Below are positions 764 to 11,469 of a DNA stretch of 11,469 bases, in pieces. The position numbers and the translations under genes are program-made. Location of the stretch: the IMG/VR virus record IMGVR_UViG_2660238126_000001, positions 1 through 11,469 of that record. The stretch is one strand, 5' to 3'. Under the pieces are notes generated by a model. That model did not search any database. It saw nothing but the letters and a program-made list of their open reading frames with translations, and was not told where the DNA came from. Source of the stretch: a virus. Taxonomy: Duplodnaviria > Heunggongvirae > Uroviricota > Caudoviricetes. Positions within the stretch are counted from its first letter, which is position 1, and each line of letters opens with the position of its first letter.

Positions 764-1480
<717 letters not shown>

Positions 1481-1519
1481 TGAAACCACTTTTATCTACA
1501 ATTTACAGGGCGGTAAACA

Positions 1520-2077
1520 TTGGCAAAAATAGATGATTATCAGCCAAGCCAAGTAGAAGTTGATAAAGTACTTTATTGTAAAAAAATAGTTAACTTTTCT
1601 GGCGTTAAATGGAAACAGAAACCAAGTCGCTCTGATATGTGGCTACAAGCTCATATCATCCCCTTGGATGAGGATTGTATACCTATACAAGGGCTAAAGT
1701 TTGAACTGAAATGGAAACCAGATCAGGATTCAGAACCTGATGACCCGATTTCTTACCCTAAAATAAATATTATTGCTTTCTATCATAACAAGAGGGTTTT
1801 CGCGGTAGATACCTATCACTTTGACAAACACACGAATAGTTACAAGGTCGATCATCCGAAGTACCAAGATATCATTTACGGTGCTCATTACCATGTATAC
1901 TATGAAGAAGCTGGATACTATAGTGATAGAATAGCGTTTCCAATCGAAGATGACATAAACCCAGATGACCTGGTAGGGTATTGGAATTACTTCTGTAAAC
2001 ATCTGAACATAACTTACTCTGGGAGAATACCTTTACCGCTTGAAGATGAGTCGGGGCAAATGGGGTTTGGAATATGA
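1520..2077 (+). CDS. Hypothetical protein A (185 aa), first gene of a two-gene cassette in the rexA position; acidic and rich in Tyr, His and Trp
   Basis: 558-nt ORF starting at TTG 1520, three codons after an in-frame TAA, with agggcgg about 10 nt upstream; the first in-frame ATG is codon 40 at 1637. Co-oriented with cI and visibly more AT-rich than the flanks. No transmembrane segment or recognisable catalytic motif by eye. Confidence 0.7.
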   Translation: MAKIDDYQPSQVEVDKVLYCKKIVNFSGVKWKQKPSRSDMWLQAHIIPLDEDCIPIQGLKFELKWKPDQDSEPDDPISYPKINIIAFYHNKRVFAVDTYHFDKHTNSYKVDHPKYQDIIYGAHYHVYYEEAGYYSDRIAFPIEDDINPDDLVGYWNYFCKHLNITYSGRIPLPLEDESGQMGFGI

Positions 2078-2826
2078 TGTGCTCAACAGTGATCTCACAA
2101 CTAGGTTTCGAATGCCATCCAATAGGCAAGACCTTGAGAATTATCAGTCCATTCACTTACTGTGATGATGGAGAGCATGTCGGTGCCTTTATCCGTGAAG
2201 TCAATGGTAGGTATTTAGTTAGTGACAGATGCGATGCCTTAATGAATATGGAGGCAAGAGGGATCTCGCTTACCAAAAAACGACTTGATGAGATACGACA
2301 ATTACTGCTTAAAGAAGGCGCAGAACTCAATGCTCGAGGAGAAATCATTGCTTGGGCAACAGAAAAGGATGTCGGTGCGATTACATCGAACATAATTAGA
2401 GCTGGTATACTCGCATCAACTTTGTCGTTAGACTGGTATCAGCCAGTTCAAGCTGAAAAGTTTGAAAGTATGGTTATTGATTATCTATATCACACAGAGC
2501 TTAGAGAGGCACTTTCTCTTCGTGAAAACGTATATGGCTTGAGTGGACATCAAATTACCGTCCCTGTAACAATAAAAACCGACATACCTAAATACGTTTT
2601 TACATCAAGCGTGAAACACGGAGGAAGCTGGAATAGTGCTTACTCATTGCTTGGGAAACTAATTGATCTTAAAGCTTCAAGTGAGGAGTATAACAACAGA
2701 TTTGTTGTTATAGACAGCGAAGCAATTGGTGATCAAATGCAACAACTCTCCTTACTCTTCCATGAATCAAGCCAAGTTCTACCATTCTCCAAAAGAGAGA
2801 CTTGGATTAAGAGACTTGCAGCATAA
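2074..2826 (+). CDS. Hypothetical protein B (250 aa), second gene of the cassette in the rexB position; soluble, with an N-terminal Cys/His cluster
   Basis: ATG 2074 overlaps the TGA stop of gene A (aatATGAtg), indicating translational coupling. 753-nt ORF ending at TAA 2824..2826, immediately followed by an intrinsic terminator. No lambda counterpart recognised. Confidence 0.8.
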   Translation: MMCSTVISQLGFECHPIGKTLRIISPFTYCDDGEHVGAFIREVNGRYLVSDRCDALMNMEARGISLTKKRLDEIRQLLLKEGAELNARGEIIAWATEKDVGAITSNIIRAGILASTLSLDWYQPVQAEKFESMVIDYLYHTELREALSLRENVYGLSGHQITVPVTIKTDIPKYVFTSSVKHGGSWNSAYSLLGKLIDLKASSEEYNNRFVVIDSEAIGDQMQQLSLLFHESSQVLPFSKRETWIKRLAA

Positions 2827-2831
2827 TACAA

Positions 2832-2857
2832 CCCGGCCTCAGCGCCGGGTTTTCTTT
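2832..2857 (+). terminator. Intrinsic terminator (tImm-like) closing the PRM immunity transcript
   Basis: cccggc-ctcagc-gccggg hairpin followed by ttttcttt. Sequence from here rightward to OL resembles the lambda rexB-distal / tImm region as I recall it. Confidence 0.8.
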
Positions 2858-3014
2858 GCCTCACGATCGCCCCACCTAAAAACACATAACCAATTGTATT
2901 TATTGGAAAATAAATAGATACAACTCACTAAACAACGCAATTCTGATCTCTCCTTACATCGCCGAGGCAATACACTCACTCGAAAAAATAAATCCATATA
3001 AAAAACATACAGAT

Positions 3015-3077
3015 AACCATTTGCGGTGATAAAATATCTCTAGCGGTGTTGACACAAATACCACTAGCGGTGATACT
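3015..3077 (+). promoter_or_regulatory. Left operator region OL3 (3015..3031), OL2 (3035..3051), OL1 (3059..3075) with PL promoter (-35 ttgaca 3049..3054, -10 gatact 3072..3077)
   Basis: Sites aaccatttgcggtgata, tatctctagcggtgttg and taccactagcggtgata. ttgaca-17-gatact reads rightward into nutL and N. Confidence 0.9.
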
Positions 3078-3117: not shown

Positions 3118-3148
3118 GGCTCTTAAAAATTTAGCCCTGAAGAAGGGC
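3118..3148 (+). promoter_or_regulatory. nutL: nutL (boxA ggctcttaa and boxB gccctgaagaagggc)
   Basis: boxA-like 9-mer followed by a perfect boxB hairpin sequence, about 45 nt downstream of the PL -10. Confidence 0.85.
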
Positions 3149-3258: not shown

Positions 3259-3582
3259 ATGGATGCACAAACACGCCGCCGCGAACGTCGCGCAGAGAAA
3301 CAGGCTCAATGGAAAGCAGCAAATCCCCTGTTGGTTGGGGTAAGCGCAAAACCAGTTAACCGCCCTATTCTCTCGCTGAATCGCAAACCGAAATCACGAG
3401 TAGAAAGCGCACTGAATCCGATAGACCTTACAGTGCTGGCTGAATACCACGAACAGATTGAAAGCAACCTGCAACGTATTGAGCGCAAGAATCAGCGCAC
3501 ATGGTACAGCAAGCCTGGCGAACGCGGCATAACATGCAGTGGACGCCAGAAAATTAAGGGAAAATCGATTCCTCTTATCTAG
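3259..3582 (+). CDS. N: Antitermination protein N (107 aa)
   Basis: Translation MDAQTRRRERRAEKQAQWKAANPLL...KGKSIPLI with the arginine-rich motif, preceded by RBS aggagaatccag-ATG. The track's longer 3169 start is a TTG extension and is rejected. Confidence 0.96.
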   Translation: MDAQTRRRERRAEKQAQWKAANPLLVGVSAKPVNRPILSLNRKPKSRVESALNPIDLTVLAEYHEQIESNLQRIERKNQRTWYSKPGERGITCSGRQKIKGKSIPLI

Positions 3583-4137
3583 TTACTTAGATATTGGCCT
3601 TGGCTTTATCTCAATATTATATGGATCATAGCTGGCAACTAATTCAGTCCAGTAAATATCCTCAATAGGGAATAATATATGCTTCCCGTTCCATCGGGAA
3701 AAAGTTTTGTTCAACACACCAAGCTCAATCAACTCACTAATGTATGGGAATTGTTTTGATGTAACCACATACTTCCTGCCTTCATTAAGGGCTGCGCACA
3801 AAACCATAGATTGCTCTTCTGTAAGGTTTTGAATTACCGATCGCACTTTATCGTTTTGCATCTTAATGCGTTTTCTTAGCTTAAATCGCTTATATCTGGC
3901 GCTGGCAATAGCTGATAATCGATGCACATTAATTGCTAGCGAAAATGCAAGAGCAAAGACGAAAACATGCCACACATGAGGAATACCGATTCTCTCATTA
4001 ACATATTCAGGCCAGTTATCTGGGCTTAAAAGCAGAAGTCCAACCCAGATAACGATCATATACATGGTTCTCTCCAGAGGTTCATTACTGAACACTCGTC
4101 CGAGAATAACGAGTGGATCCATTTCTATACTCATCAA
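3583..4137 (-). CDS. sieB: Superinfection exclusion protein B (184 aa), membrane protein
   Basis: Translation MMSIEMDPLVILGRVFSNEPLERTMYMIVIWVGLLLLSPDNWPEY... matches lambda SieB from memory. It has hydrophobic N-terminal helices and is convergent with N. Confidence 0.92.
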   Translation of the reverse strand: MMSIEMDPLVILGRVFSNEPLERTMYMIVIWVGLLLLSPDNWPEYVNERIGIPHVWHVFVFALAFSLAINVHRLSAIASARYKRFKLRKRIKMQNDKVRSVIQNLTEEQSMVLCAALNEGRKYVVTSKQFPYISELIELGVLNKTFSRWNGKHILFPIEDIYWTELVASYDPYNIEIKPRPISK

Positions 4138-4261
4138 ACTGTAGGGGTTGTAATAGTTTATCCGATTTCTCGCTGTAGGGGTACACGAGAACCACCGAGC
4201 CTGATGTGGTTAAAAGACAGGCACAATCTTTACTACCGCAATCCACTATTTAAGGTGATAT

Positions 4262-4348
4262 ATGGAAGAAGAATTTGAAGAGTTCGAAGAGCATCCGCAG
4301 GATGTAATGGAACAGTACCAGGACTATCCGTATGACTACGACTATTGA
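4262..4348 (+). CDS. Small acidic ORF (28 aa, MEEEFEEFEEHPQDVMEQYQDYPYDYDY), lambda orf28-like
   Basis: ATG 4262 with upstream taaggtga; overlaps the ral start. Its position between sieB and ral matches lambda orf28 as recalled. Below the length cut-off of the ORF track. Confidence 0.5.
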   Translation: MEEEFEEFEEHPQDVMEQYQDYPYDYDY

Positions 4349-4511
4349 TAAGAATCAATGGTGTGGACAATTCAAGCGATGCAATGGATGCAAGCTGCAA
4401 TCGGAATGCATGGTTAAGCCTGAAGAAATGTTTCCTGTAATGGAAGATGGGAAATATGTCGATAAATGGGCAATACGAACGACGGCAATGATTGCCAGAG
4501 AACTTGGTTAA
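4332..4511 (+). CDS. ral: Restriction alleviation protein Ral, ending early at TAA (59 aa); the frame continues QNNKAA to TGA at 4530..4532
   Basis: Translation MTTTIDKNQWCGQFKRCNGCKLQSECMVKPEEMFPVMEDGKYVDKWAIRTTAMIARELG*. Lambda Ral is 66 aa as I recall, and 59 + 7 in-frame codons gives 66. Confidence 0.8.
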   Translation: MTTTIDKNQWCGQFKRCNGCKLQSECMVKPEEMFPVMEDGKYVDKWAIRTTAMIARELG

Positions 4512-4668
4512 CAGAACAACAAAGCTGCCTGATAGTGGCCTTTATTTTTGGCATAAATAACAGAATAAACACTGCACTGTGTATTCATTCCAACGAGTGA
4601 ATACACGGAGCAATGTCGCTCGTAACTAAACAGGAGCCGACTTGTTCTGATTATTGGAAATCTTCTTT

Positions 4669-5083: not shown

Positions 5084-5155
5084 GCGCGGCGTTACCGCAT
5101 ACCAATAACGCTTCACTCGAGGCGTTTTTCGTTATGTATAAATAAGGAGCACACC

Positions 5156-5320
5156 ATGCAATATGCCATTGCAGGGTGGCCTGTTGCTGGCTGCCCTTCC
5201 GAATCTTTACTTGAACGAATCACCCGTAAATTACGTGACGGATGGAAACGCCTTATCGACATACTTAATCAGCCAGGAGTCCCAAAAAATGGATCAAACA
5301 CTTATGGCTATCCAGACTAA
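5156..5320 (+). CDS. cIII: CIII (54 aa), FtsH inhibitor that stabilises CII
   Basis: Translation [54 protein letters not shown] with RBS aaggag upstream. The track ORF 5163..5432 is a different frame. Confidence 0.9.
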   Translation: MQYAIAGWPVAGCPSESLLERITRKLRDGWKRLIDILNQPGVPKNGSNTYGYPD

Positions 5321-8772: not shown

Positions 8773-9387
8773 ATGAAAAAATCAATACTAATTTTAGGGC
8801 TTACGTTAATTGTCTCATCTCAAATACCATCGGCAATGGCAAAAAATGAATCAAGACTTTGGGTTGTTGTTGATCGAACGGAAAGACATACCTGCCCTTC
8901 AAGTAAATGTGGAGTGGCTGGGAAACTATTTTTCAGGGAAGGCGTAGATTTTCTAGAAAAAAAAGGTGAATGGGTTCGTATAACTGAGCCATATTCAGCC
9001 TCATGTGTGGGAGGGGAAAGCGAATATATTAAAGAAGGTAATAAATCCTGCACAAGAAAAAACGGAATCGTCAATGGCAAGTTTTCAGAATGGGTTAAAC
9101 TTAGTGATCTTAGCAGTGAAAGGCCATCAGATCCTGCTGAAAATGCGAGCGGAGATGATACTTTAATCAAAGGATCTGATGACTACCGTATATACAAAAA
9201 AGAGTTTTCTTCGGCAGCTAGGAAGTTAATAAACGAAGGGGTCTGCACGGAAAGCGACTTTAAGGAAATCGGAGGGTGGATGGCATCAAGCAATAAGGGG
9301 AAAAACATCTATTTCACATATTGCGGAGGAATGACGTTGTCGAACAGAATATACCTAGACGTTAAAAGTGGAAAGACTTTTAGATAA
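8773..9387 (+). CDS. Secreted/periplasmic protein (204 aa) with a Sec signal peptide and an SH3b-like N-terminal region; AT-rich moron
   Basis: Signal peptide MKKSILILGLTLIVSSQIPSAMA followed by KNE. SH3b-like pattern in RLWVVVDRTERHTCPSSKCGVAGKLFFREGVDFLEKKGEWVRITEP. Seven Cys in the mature part. RBS aaggaaa precedes the ATG. Not part of lambda. Confidence 0.75.
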   Translation: MKKSILILGLTLIVSSQIPSAMAKNESRLWVVVDRTERHTCPSSKCGVAGKLFFREGVDFLEKKGEWVRITEPYSASCVGGESEYIKEGNKSCTRKNGIVNGKFSEWVKLSDLSSERPSDPAENASGDDTLIKGSDDYRIYKKEFSSAARKLINEGVCTESDFKEIGGWMASSNKGKNIYFTYCGGMTLSNRIYLDVKSGKTFR

Positions 9388-10047: not shown

Positions 10048-10476
10048 ATGAAATTAGACCAGCAATATCTAAAAGATCTACTTATCGCATTCGAAAAAAC
10101 TCATGGCCCTGACACGATGCTTAGTGAACTAGAGGATAATGGCTTTAATAGATATGACCAAAATTTTATTTTCCATATGCGATTATTATGCGACTACGAA
10201 TTAATAGTCAGGGTTGATGGAAAACCTGGGTTCGGTCATATAATGTCCAACGAGTTAGGGGAAGGTGTTGGATATAGTTGGATCGAAGTACCACTGAGGT
10301 TGACAGCAAGAGGGCATGATTTTATTGCTGACTTGCGTCAAAAGGAGGTCTGGCAAACTATAAAAACAAACTTTAAGGATGAGGGAATTAGTACACTAAT
10401 AAGTGTTTCAAAATCACTAGCAAAAGGCTTTGCAAGGAAAAAGATAAAAGATATTACAGGAATAGATATTGAATAA
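10048..10476 (+). CDS. Hypothetical cytoplasmic protein (142 aa); AT-rich moron inserted between the ea8.5 and orf55 homologues
   Basis: Strong RBS ggagg 5 nt upstream of the ATG. Translation MKLDQQYLKDLLIAFEKTHGPDTMLSELEDNGFNRYDQNFIFHMRLLCDYELIVRVDG.... Lambda has only a short spacer here as I recall. Confidence 0.8.
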   Translation: MKLDQQYLKDLLIAFEKTHGPDTMLSELEDNGFNRYDQNFIFHMRLLCDYELIVRVDGKPGFGHIMSNELGEGVGYSWIEVPLRLTARGHDFIADLRQKEVWQTIKTNFKDEGISTLISVSKSLAKGFARKKIKDITGIDIE

Positions 10477-10984: not shown

Positions 10985-11175
10985 GCGCCGGGATTTACCC
11001 CCTAACCTTTATATAAGAAACAATGGATATTACTGCTACAGGGACCCAAGGACGGGTAAAGAGTTTGGATTAGGCCGAGACAGGCGAATCGCAATCACTG
11101 AAGCTATACAGGCCAACATTGAGTTATTTTCAGGACACAAACACAAGCCTCTGACAGCGAGNNNCANNAGNGNTN
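10962..11175 (+). pseudogene. int: Integrase Int, N-terminal arm-binding region only (about 71 codons); lambda-like sequence stops after a patch of ambiguous bases
   Basis: Translation MGRRRSHERRDLPPNLYIRNNGYYCYRDPRTGKEFGLGRDRRIAITEAIQANIELFSGHKHKPLTA matches lambda Int from memory and overlaps the xis 3' end. The defined bases within 11161..11175 are consistent with int, but from 11176 the sequence no longer encodes Int and stops at 11211..11213. Confidence 0.8.
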
Positions 11176-11469
11176 ATGTACGAGCTAAATGTTACTCCGT
11201 TAAAATAAATTAGTAACAAACGCCCTATAACGTACTGAAAATTATGCCTGTGATCTAGCGCCAAAAATCAGTATTTCGGCGTGAACTCGCAAAATATTAA
11301 CGATTCAGCCGTGATAGTGGGATAAACACCTTAGAACGCCGGATAAAGACTGATAATTGTCTTCGACGGTCGGGTAAAACGAGACATCGCCCCGGCACGA
11401 ATCACTACTTAACACGGATGGCTTCAGCCCCCGTTTTCACACGAAGGTCGATGCGGCGACCAAATCGTT

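What the first reader, a model, noticed from the sequence alone, without database searches (positions are those of the whole stretch)
1520..2077. Cassette protein A: non-ATG start and unusual composition
The only start compatible with the full ORF is TTG at 1520, three codons after an in-frame TAA; the first in-frame ATG is codon 40. The protein is strongly acidic (many D/E, including DDPISYP, IEDDINPDD, LPLEDES) and enriched in Tyr, His and Trp (YGAHYHVYYEEAGYY). It has no Walker, HNH or obvious PD-(D/E)xK motif, so it may be a binding or sensor component rather than an enzyme.
Basis: seen in the sequence. Interest (0 to 1): 0.5.

Follow-up and report, generated by a model that had tools for sequence, protein, structure and literature searches.

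The report
Uncharacterised prophage gene replacing lambda rexA
This is a real protein-coding gene that starts at a weak TTG codon; it is the first of two uncharacterised genes that sit where phage lambda keeps its rexA-rexB exclusion genes, so it is probably part of an untested anti-phage module carried by about 4% of E. coli genomes.

Summary
The ORF 1520-2077 is a genuine 185-aa gene and TTG-1520 is its start. Homologues in about 100 loci (21-99% identity) align from residue 1 (MAK...). Codons 2-39 are under the same purifying selection as the rest of the gene. 17 of about 20 lineages use TTG or GTG at this codon. The composition claim holds only in part: Tyr is enriched (8.6%), but the protein is only mildly acidic (pI 5.3).

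The window is about 97% identical to phage lambda, except that rexA-rexB are replaced exactly, from the cI stop to the tIMM terminator. The replacement is gene A plus an overlapping gene B (DUF1828). The A-B pair is always adjacent. In 82 of 92 loci it lies directly behind a cI-type repressor.

A has a confident beta-rich model with no relative among solved or viral structures. It carries an invariant Asp/His/Asn/His/His cluster and a conserved disordered C-terminal tail. B combines a YbjN/chaperone-like domain with a restriction-endonuclease-like domain that lacks canonical catalytic residues. The pair resembles the untested PADLOC candidate PDC-M24, strongly for B and only weakly for A.

The best reading is a lysogen-expressed anti-phage cassette kept at low dosage. 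The mechanism is inferred, not shown.

The parts
767..1480 (+). cI repressor (lambda-type, 237 aa). It is the upstream gene of the operon; its stop codon marks the left edge of the replaced segment.
   Evidence: Pfam HTH_3 plus Peptidase_S24. About 96.5% identical to lambda 38376-37226; similarity to lambda ends at window 1481.
1481..1519 (+). 39-nt cI-A spacer holding a weak Shine-Dalgarno-like GGGCGG and the in-frame TAA at 1514-1516. No terminator lies between cI and A.
   Evidence: Sequence. The terminator scan finds nothing between cI and A. RNA folding is not significant, z = -1.15. Homologues keep only a GGA core about 9-11 nt upstream of the start.
1520..1522 (+). TTG initiation codon of gene A.
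   Evidence: It is aligned with GTG or TTG in 17 of about 20 homologous lineages and with ATG in only 3. PGAP uses the same start.
1520..2077 (+). Gene A: 185 aa, beta-rich, Tyr-rich, uncharacterised (phrog_2017; a weak DUF6978 / PDC-M24A relative).
1808..1894 (+). Codons for the conserved polar cluster D97, H104, N106, G121, H123 and H125 (RxxAxD...HxN...GxHxH). This is a putative metal or catalytic site.
   Evidence: Invariant or nearly invariant in alignments spanning 21-99% identity. The residues lie on predicted strands 91-98, 103-105 and 123-126. Spatial clustering could not be checked because no coordinates were available.
2036..2074 (+). Conserved, predicted-disordered C-terminal tail of A (P173-LEDESGQMGFGI). 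This is a candidate docking motif or degron.
   Evidence: P173, E175, S178, G179, Q180 and G182 are invariant in the close family, and P...GQ..L(L) is kept in the distant clade. pLDDT is 37-56.
2074..2077 (+). ATGA overlap of the A stop codon with the B start codon (translational coupling).
   Evidence: Sequence. The same overlap is seen in 92 of 93 loci; in the 93rd, L040, gene A is frameshifted. It is also seen in the Aeromonas and Thorsellia loci.
2074..2826 (+). Gene B: 250 aa, DUF1828. It has a YbjN/T3SS-chaperone-like N-domain and a restriction-endonuclease-like C-domain, and is the obligate partner of A.
2830..2851 (+). Intrinsic terminator, homologous to lambda tIMM. It closes the cI-A-B operon and marks the right edge of the replaced segment.
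   Evidence: 8-bp GC-rich stem followed by a T run. Similarity to lambda resumes at window 2830 = lambda 35826.

Best explanation
Gene A (1520-2077) is a translated gene that initiates at TTG-1520. It is the first cistron of a two-gene accessory cassette (A plus the DUF1828 protein B, joined by an ATGA overlap). The cassette precisely replaces rexA-rexB of phage lambda, between the cI stop codon and the tIMM terminator. It is therefore transcribed with the repressor in lysogens.

The most likely function is a lysogen-expressed anti-phage module (superinfection exclusion or abortive infection). It is distantly related to the untested PADLOC candidate PDC-M24.

Within the pair, A is a compact beta-rich protein with an invariant Asp/His/Asn/His/His cluster, probably a metal site. 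It ends in a conserved disordered tail that probably docks onto B's chaperone-like N-domain. B supplies a restriction-endonuclease-like, DNA-directed domain. A weak start codon (TTG or GTG), a weak Shine-Dalgarno sequence and coupling of B's translation to A's probably keep both proteins scarce and in a fixed ratio.

Shown here: the gene is real, its start, the operon anatomy, the obligate pairing, the linkage to repressors and the fold assignments. Inferred only: the defence function, the A-B complex, metal binding, and which partner senses and which executes.
For: Gene and start:
- Homologues cover 100% of A and share the N-terminus.
- pN is far below pS in codons 2-39.
- TTG or GTG is retained in 17 of about 20 lineages even though synonymous sites are saturated.
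- The AF2 model is confident: pLDDT 82, pTM 0.81.

Slot:
- The window matches lambda at about 97% on both sides, with breakpoints at 1481 and 2830.
- There is no terminator between cI and A, and there is one right after B.
- The same slot holds rexAB in lambda, an NYN-domain gene in phages 2B8 and ev099, and another gene pair in HK542.
- The cI-N interval is a described mosaic hotspot that carries the abortive-infection genes rexAB and bstA (PMC8585504).

Linkage:
- 82 of 92 loci have a cI/S24-type repressor directly upstream, in at least 25 different repressor and spacing combinations.
- A and B are adjacent in all loci examined from either side, including 21-28% identical relatives.

Relation to a defence candidate:
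- B matches PDC-M24B over its full length at E = 5.8e-10.
- A and 7 other family members hit only PDC-M24A models.

Partner fold: B has a YbjN/chaperone-like domain plus a PD-(D/E)xK-like domain.

Features of A: invariant D97, N106, H123 and H125 plus nearly invariant H104, and a conserved disordered tail.

The cassette is AT-rich (38-39% GC) compared with its flanks. It is present in 239 of 5426 complete E. coli genomes, including Nissle 1917.
Against: - No experiment exists for this cassette, for DUF6978, for DUF1828 or for PDC-M24. Literature searches returned nothing functional, and PDC systems are untested candidates.
- A's match to DUF6978 and PDC-M24A is weak (E about 2-5e-4), covers only residues 104-164 and is below Pfam's cut-off.
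- B lacks an invariant D...(D/E)xK triad, so it may not be a nuclease.
- The A-B contact, the metal site and the meaning of the weak start are inferences.
- Three lineages use ATG, so a weak start codon is not obligatory.
- Occupying the slot does not prove defence: RexA itself also modulates the lysis-lysogeny switch (abstract of bioRxiv 10.1101/2021.04.19.439022, listed).
Confidence: 0.55

Rival explanations
1. A-B is a regulator of the prophage's own life cycle. It would modulate the CI/Cro switch, induction or replication, as recently described for RexA, and would not act against other phages.
For: It shares an operon with cI and has the same position as rexA. RexA is reported to bias the switch toward lytic growth independently of RexB (abstracts of bioRxiv 10.1101/2021.04.19.439022 and PMC11077077). 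B has a DNA-enzyme-like fold without obvious catalytic residues, which would fit a DNA-binding role.
Against: The identical cassette sits behind at least 25 different repressor types and immunity regions in several genera. That is hard to reconcile with a function tuned to one switch. A has no HTH or other DNA-binding domain. The other cargo in this slot is defence-like: rexAB, bstA and an NYN-domain gene.
Confidence: 0.15
2. A-B is a toxin-antitoxin-like addiction module that stabilises the prophage. A would be a labile antitoxin, with its hydrophobic-ended C-terminal tail acting as a protease tag, and B would be the toxin.
For: It is a two-gene operon with overlapping, translationally coupled genes. 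The upstream partner is mildly acidic. It has a conserved disordered C-terminal tail ending in hydrophobic residues. B has a nuclease-like fold.
Against: Neither protein matches any toxin or antitoxin family in Pfam, NCBIfam or PADLOC. A has no DNA-binding domain for autoregulation. A weak TTG or GTG start on the supposed antitoxin is the opposite of the usual antitoxin excess. A's most conserved residues form an enzyme-like polar cluster, not an interface. Both proteins are larger than typical type II pairs.
Confidence: 0.12
3. A-B is lysogenic-conversion cargo with a host-physiology role unrelated to phages, such as a metal- or stress-related enzyme pair. It would simply be carried in a permissive slot.
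For: A has a His-rich invariant cluster that suggests a metalloprotein. B's top structural neighbour is a biofilm-operon regulator of the YbjN/DUF2170 fold. No defence phenotype is known.
Against: The pair is strictly confined to prophage immunity regions in all loci examined in the enterobacterial clade. Its only family resemblance is to a defence candidate. The family is rare and patchy, with 20 cluster representatives among 1.84 billion proteins. That is typical of mobile defence cargo.
Confidence: 0.1
4. The region 1520-1636 is an untranslated leader and the protein starts at ATG-1637, or A is not translated at all and serves as a leader for B.
For: TTG is a rare start codon and the Shine-Dalgarno sequence is weak. 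ATG-1637 is the first in-frame ATG.
Against: Codons 2-39 show protein-level purifying selection equal to the rest of the gene. The N-terminal residues are invariant across genera. Many homologues have no in-frame ATG in the first 60 codons. The N-terminal helix and strand are confidently folded parts of the model.
Confidence: 0.02

Closest known systems
Phage lambda RexA-RexB exclusion system
   Same: Exactly the same genomic slot and operon logic. It is a two-gene cassette between the cI stop codon and tIMM, co-oriented with cI and expressed in lysogens. The window is otherwise about 97% lambda.
   Different: There is no sequence or fold relationship: A and B match no Rex model in PADLOC or Pfam. 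Neither partner appears to be a membrane protein: both AF2 models are mixed helix/strand globular folds and B's structural neighbours are soluble proteins. RexB is reported to be an ion channel (PMC8585504). rexA starts with ATG. The rex genes are separate, whereas A and B overlap.
PADLOC candidate system PDC-M24 (A = DUF6978-like, B = DUF1828/DUF1829-like)
   Same: Same gene order and the same two protein types. B matches PDC-M24B over its full length (E = 5.8e-10). A and its relatives hit only PDC-M24A models.
   Different: A's match is weak (E = 4.8e-4), covers only residues 104-163 and probably falls below a calling threshold. PDC-M24 itself is an unpublished, untested candidate, so it gives no mechanism.
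Pfam DUF6978 (PF22398)
   Same: It shares the C-terminal core, A residues 104-164 aligned to profile positions 81-133. That stretch includes the HxN...GxHxH region.
   Different: The score is 22 bits against a gathering cut-off of 29.6. Only 6 of 18 family members hit at E <= 0.01. The N-terminal 100 residues are not covered. The function of DUF6978 is unknown.
BstA (Salmonella BTP1 prophage abortive-infection protein)
   Same: [quoted passage not shown] It is found behind repressors in diverse Gram-negative prophages (PMC8585504).
   Different: It is a single protein with its own anti-BstA DNA element. It is unrelated to A or B, which give no family match to it.
CARF-less Can2/Card1-type and CCGG-family restriction endonuclease folds; YbjN / XisI / type III secretion chaperone fold (structural neighbours of partner B only)

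Membership tests
Pfam DUF6978 (PF22398) | Whole-protein score at or above the curated gathering threshold (29.6 bits). | tested here: not met
   22 bits, E = 2.2e-4, matching only residues 104-164 to profile positions 81-133 of 133. 6 of 18 relatives hit at E <= 0.01 with a best E of 1.1e-4, and A itself scores below the cut-off.
PADLOC PDC-M24 | A-type protein matching a PDC-M24A model. | tested here: inconclusive
   E = 4.8e-4, 18 bits, partial match. 8 of 18 family members hit one of three PDC-M24A models and no other PADLOC family.
PADLOC PDC-M24 | B-type protein matching a PDC-M24B model. | tested here: met
   E = 5.8e-10, residues 2-248 against profile positions 4-253 of 256. A second model matches at E = 1.1e-7.
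PADLOC PDC-M24 | The two genes are adjacent, on the same strand, with A upstream of B. | tested here: met
   ATGA overlap in the window. The same arrangement is seen in all related loci examined.
PADLOC PDC-M24 / anti-phage defence systems in general | Demonstrated protection against phage infection. | not testable with these tools
   No publication mentions PDC-M24, and DUF6978 and DUF1828 appear only in passing in gene lists. PDC systems are described as untested candidates.
PHROG 2017 (phage protein family, unknown function) | Significant full-length match to the family profile. | tested here: met
   E = 6.2e-67, residues 2-183 against profile positions 7-162 of 162.
Lambda RexAB-type exclusion system | Location between cI and the tIMM terminator, co-transcribed with cI. 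| tested here: met
   Breakpoints against lambda lie at window 1481 and 2830. There is no terminator before A and one after B.
Lambda RexAB-type exclusion system | Homology of the first gene product to RexA. | tested here: not met
Lambda RexAB-type exclusion system | The second gene product is a polytopic inner-membrane protein (RexB). | tested here: not met
   B is modelled as a two-domain mixed helix/strand globular protein whose structural neighbours are soluble proteins. No dedicated transmembrane-helix prediction was run.
Type II toxin-antitoxin modules | A toxin and an antitoxin belonging to known TA families, with the antitoxin carrying a DNA-binding domain. | tested here: not met
   Neither protein gives a TA-family hit, and A has no HTH, RHH or AbrB domain.

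The most novel reading that the evidence does not exclude
A-B is a previously uncharacterised type of prophage-encoded anti-phage system occupying the rexAB slot. Protein A would have a fold with no solved relative and would use a His-cluster metal site either to sense a phage cue or to act as the effector. It would work in a fixed low-copy complex with the chaperone-like/endonuclease-like protein B. That dosage would be enforced by a selectively maintained non-ATG start codon and translational coupling.
Probability: 0.3. Interest if true: 0.65.

Novelty: new variant of a known kind. Interest (0 to 1): 0.45.

Why it matters
The slot behind the lambda-type repressor is where rexAB, one of the oldest and still unexplained abortive-infection systems, resides. 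This window shows a clean natural swap of rexAB for an unrelated two-gene cassette. The cassette is present in 239 of 5426 complete E. coli genomes, including the probiotic Nissle 1917 and the type strain ATCC 11775, and it also occurs in an Stx1a-converting phage.

If it is a defence system, it would affect how such strains resist therapeutic or Stx phages. It would also add a mechanism built from two domains of unknown function (a DUF6978-like protein and DUF1828). The near-universal TTG/GTG start offers a simple experimental handle, a start-codon swap, for testing whether dosage is critical.

Tried and rejected
- **PDB sequence searches.** A weak match to an NMN adenylyltransferase (E = 0.21) was judged to be chance. 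A match to the designed Kelch propeller SAKe6AC has a summed E of 6e-12, but no single stretch passes. It arises from six identical repeats each weakly matching one hairpin, so I rejected it as an artefact.
- **BFVD viral structures.** No hit with E <= 1e-3.
- **AFDB50 fold search.** The library was not available, so 'no known fold' holds only for solved and viral structures.
- **A and B as paralogues.** hhalign probability 0.1%, rejected.
- **RNA structure around the start codon as a regulator.** z = -1.15, not significant. The promoter-like hits in the region are at chance level, 6 found against 7.1 expected.
- **Rfam and tRNA scans.** Nothing in the cassette.
- **The search for related loci with the distant alignments A2 and A4.** Both failed for lack of a conserved stretch.
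- **Literature.** Searches for the RefSeq accessions, PDC-M24, DUF6978, DUF1828 and the PhiR57 phage names returned nothing functional. The Nissle 1917 paper tested only the repressor gene (PMC5987069).
- **DNA-mimic idea for A.** Rejected, because acidity is ordinary (net charge -9, pI 5.3).

Full report
**1. The observation**

The ORF 1520-2077 (+) is present as described, at 185 codons. TTG-1520 is the only ATG, GTG or TTG codon between the in-frame TAA at 1514-1516 and ATG-1637, which is codon 40. The TAA is two codons upstream (TAA-ACA-TTG), not three.

The composition claim holds only in part:
- Tyr is clearly enriched: 16/185 = 8.6%, against 3.0% in the other 16 proteins of the window (binomial P = 1.5e-4).
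- His is marginal: 4.3% against 2.2% (P = 0.058).
- Trp is not enriched (P = 0.38).
- Acidity is ordinary: D+E is 15.7% against 13.6% (P = 0.23), with pI 5.27 and net charge -9.

**2. Is it a gene, and where does it start?**

It is a gene, and it starts at TTG-1520. The evidence:
- A search of 5.8 billion proteins finds homologues of 183-187 aa covering 100% of the query, all beginning MAK.(D/T)DY.PSQ.EVD.
- RefSeq/PGAP annotates the same 558-nt CDS in Nissle 1917, as WP_001062368.1, hypothetical protein.
- Against 14 diverged homologues, codons 2-39 have synonymous differences of 0.55-1.07 per site but non-synonymous differences of only 0.17-0.40. These values match the rest of the gene. The segment upstream of ATG-1637 is therefore translated and is not a leader.
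- The AF2 model (pLDDT 82, pTM 0.81) places a helix at 11-19 and a strand at 22-25, with pLDDT above 90.

The start codon across the family is informative:
- In 92 of the 93 related loci (38-99% identity; the 93rd, L040, is frameshifted), the codon aligned with residue 1 is TTG in the E. coli clade or GTG in all other enterobacterial clades. It is never ATG.
- Many of these loci have no in-frame ATG in the first 60 codons.
- Adding the more distant relatives, Aeromonas uses TTG, one distant clade uses GTG, and Thorsellia plus two distant clades use ATG.
- That makes 17 of about 20 lineages non-ATG, even though synonymous sites are saturated. A weak start is favoured by selection but is not obligatory.
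- The Shine-Dalgarno element is also weak, mostly just a GGA core 9-11 nt upstream.
- The RNA around the start has no significant structure (z = -1.15).

**3. Surroundings**

The window is the early-left region of a lambda-like prophage, read in lambda's leftward direction. The genes in order are:
- cro (-) at 466-666
- cI at 767-1480
- A, then B
- a terminator at 2830-2851
- pL/OL, with the pL hexamers at 3049-3077
- a nutL-like hairpin at 3134-3148
- N at 3259-3582
- sieB (-) at 3583-4137
- ea10, the cIII thermoregulator, gam, bet, exo, xis and int

The window matches lambda at about 97% identity on both sides of the cassette. Similarity stops at window 1481, one base after the cI stop codon. 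It resumes at window 2830, which corresponds to lambda 35826 at the tIMM terminator. Genes A and B therefore replace rexA-rexB exactly.

There is no terminator between cI and A, so A and B should be transcribed with cI in lysogens. The cassette is AT-rich, at 38-39% GC.

Related phages carry other cargo in the same slot. Phages 2B8 and ev099 have an NYN-domain gene, and HK542, HK244 and HK544 have a different overlapping gene pair. The cI-N interval is a recognised mosaic hotspot that houses the abortive-infection genes rexAB and bstA (PMC8585504).

**4. The cassette as a unit**

- B (2074-2826) overlaps A by ATGA.
- The A-B pair is adjacent in every locus examined. That covers the 93 loci, relatives of 21-28% identity, and loci reached from the B side in Aeromonas and Thorsellia.
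- In 82 of 92 loci a cI/S24-type repressor lies directly upstream on the same strand, in at least 25 different combinations of repressor length and spacing.
- The cassette occurs in 7 sequenced phages (ev017, ev207, PhiR57_1, PhiR63_2 and an Stx1a phage among them) and in 239 of 5426 complete E. coli genomes, including Nissle 1917 and ATCC 11775.
- The family is rare overall, with 20 cluster representatives among 1.84 billion proteins.
- A diverges faster than B. A/B identities are 67/78, 58/72, 48/69 and 39/52%.

**5. What the proteins look like**

Protein A:
- It is mostly beta, with an N-terminal and a C-terminal helix.
- By sequence it belongs to phrog_2017, of unknown function (E = 6e-67).
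- It touches Pfam DUF6978 only weakly: 22 bits against a cut-off of 29.6, covering residues 104-164. Its match to PADLOC PDC-M24A is also weak, at E = 4.8e-4.
- Across the whole family the invariant residues are K22, W31, R92, D97, N106, G121, H123, H125, F158 and P173, with H104 nearly invariant. The signature is RxxAxD-x6-HxN-x14-GxHxH. This looks like a metal-binding or catalytic site on adjacent strands. I could not verify spatial clustering because coordinates are not exposed.
- The last 13 residues (PLEDESGQMGFGI) are conserved yet predicted to be disordered. That suggests a docking motif or a degron.

Protein B:
- Its model has pLDDT 82.
- Its superfamily-invariant residues are C3, C14, D32, E34, D51 and E90 in the N-domain, and GxSG (155-158), P164, T177 and D198 in the C-domain. 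They do not form a canonical D...(D/E)xK site.
- It matches PDC-M24B over its full length, at E = 5.8e-10.

**6. Most likely mechanism**

Shown:
- A is a real gene with a TTG start.
- A and B form an operon with cI.
- The two genes are obligately paired and translationally coupled.
- The cassette replaces rexAB and travels between immunity regions.

Inferred:
- The cassette is a lysogen-expressed anti-phage module related to the PDC-M24 candidate.
- A and B form a complex, perhaps with A's tail sitting in B's chaperone-like domain.
- A carries a metal site.
- The weak start keeps both proteins scarce.

Which partner senses and which executes is open. A's faster divergence favours a sensor or regulator role. 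Its invariant polar cluster, together with B's degenerate nuclease site, keeps an enzymatic role for A alive.

I put 0.55 on the defence-module reading. Rivals:
- A modulator of the prophage's own switch, as RexA is now reported to be: 0.15.
- A toxin-antitoxin-like addiction module: 0.12.
- Unrelated lysogenic-conversion cargo: 0.10.
- An untranslated leader, or an ATG-1637 start: 0.02.

**7. Comparison with what is known, and novelty**

The cassette works from the same place as RexAB and BstA but is related to neither. Its only family ties are to domains of unknown function and to an unpublished, untested PADLOC candidate.

Membership of DUF6978 fails Pfam's threshold. Membership of PDC-M24 is met for B and for gene order, and is inconclusive for A.

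I rate it a new variant of a known kind, namely repressor-linked prophage accessory or exclusion cassettes. Interest is moderate. The start-codon observation itself is already implicit in RefSeq annotation. What is worth following up is its evolutionary persistence, the clean rexAB swap, and the lack of any solved or viral-model structural relative for A.

Noticed in passing
window 1463-1480; L003-L009: The last ~15-18 nt of the repressor gene (gaagagacgtttgggtga, encoding EETFG-stop) are shared, with one change in most of the other-genus loci (atgagacgtttgggtga), by repressors of different length and immunity type in E. coli and other genera. The stretch lies right at the cassette boundary and looks like a conserved junction for module exchange.
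   Followed up: partly
window 11161-11180: The integrase gene (from 10962) is interrupted after about 66 codons by a run of ambiguous bases (agnnncannagngntnatgt). The sequence beyond it no longer matches lambda. This is either a truncated int, meaning a defective prophage end, or an assembly junction.
   Followed up: partly
window 8773-9387 (+) and 10048-10476 (+): There is non-lambda cargo between the ea22-like gene and xis. One ORF encodes 204 aa with a signal-peptide or lipoprotein-like N-terminus and has no Pfam match. The other encodes a 142-aa DUF2513 protein. This may be a second accessory-gene slot in the same prophage.
   Followed up: partly
L101 (phage 2B8) 1409-2266; L102 (HK542) 1332-2383: The same cI-to-pL slot carries an NYN-domain protein in phages 2B8 and ev099. 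In HK542, HK244 and HK544 it carries a different overlapping pair of hypothetical genes (144 and 206 aa). The slot is a cargo hotspot with several uncharacterised occupants.
   Followed up: partly
L040 (IMGVR_UViG_2526164629_000012), about 4001-4554: One copy of the E. coli cassette has gene A disrupted (an apparent 1-nt frameshift early in the gene) while gene B is 100% intact. This is a natural A-minus, B-plus variant, which argues against B alone being strongly toxic.
   Followed up: no
window 5143-5201 (+): The lambda cIII thermoregulator RNA element (Rfam RF01804, 88.5 bits) is intact.
   Followed up: yes
window 2074-2826 (gene B), residues 3, 14, 31-35: B's N-terminal DUF1828 domain has two invariant cysteines (C3, C14). 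It also has an invariant acidic motif, SPFTY.DDGEH, together with D51 and E90. This conserved polar site sits in the chaperone-like domain, where no enzymatic activity would be expected.
   Followed up: no
L103 (Aeromonas caviae) 2459-3004: The Aeromonas homologue of A also starts with TTG but has a strong AGGAG Shine-Dalgarno sequence 7 nt upstream. In that lineage the rare start codon is kept even where the ribosome-binding site is good.
   Followed up: no
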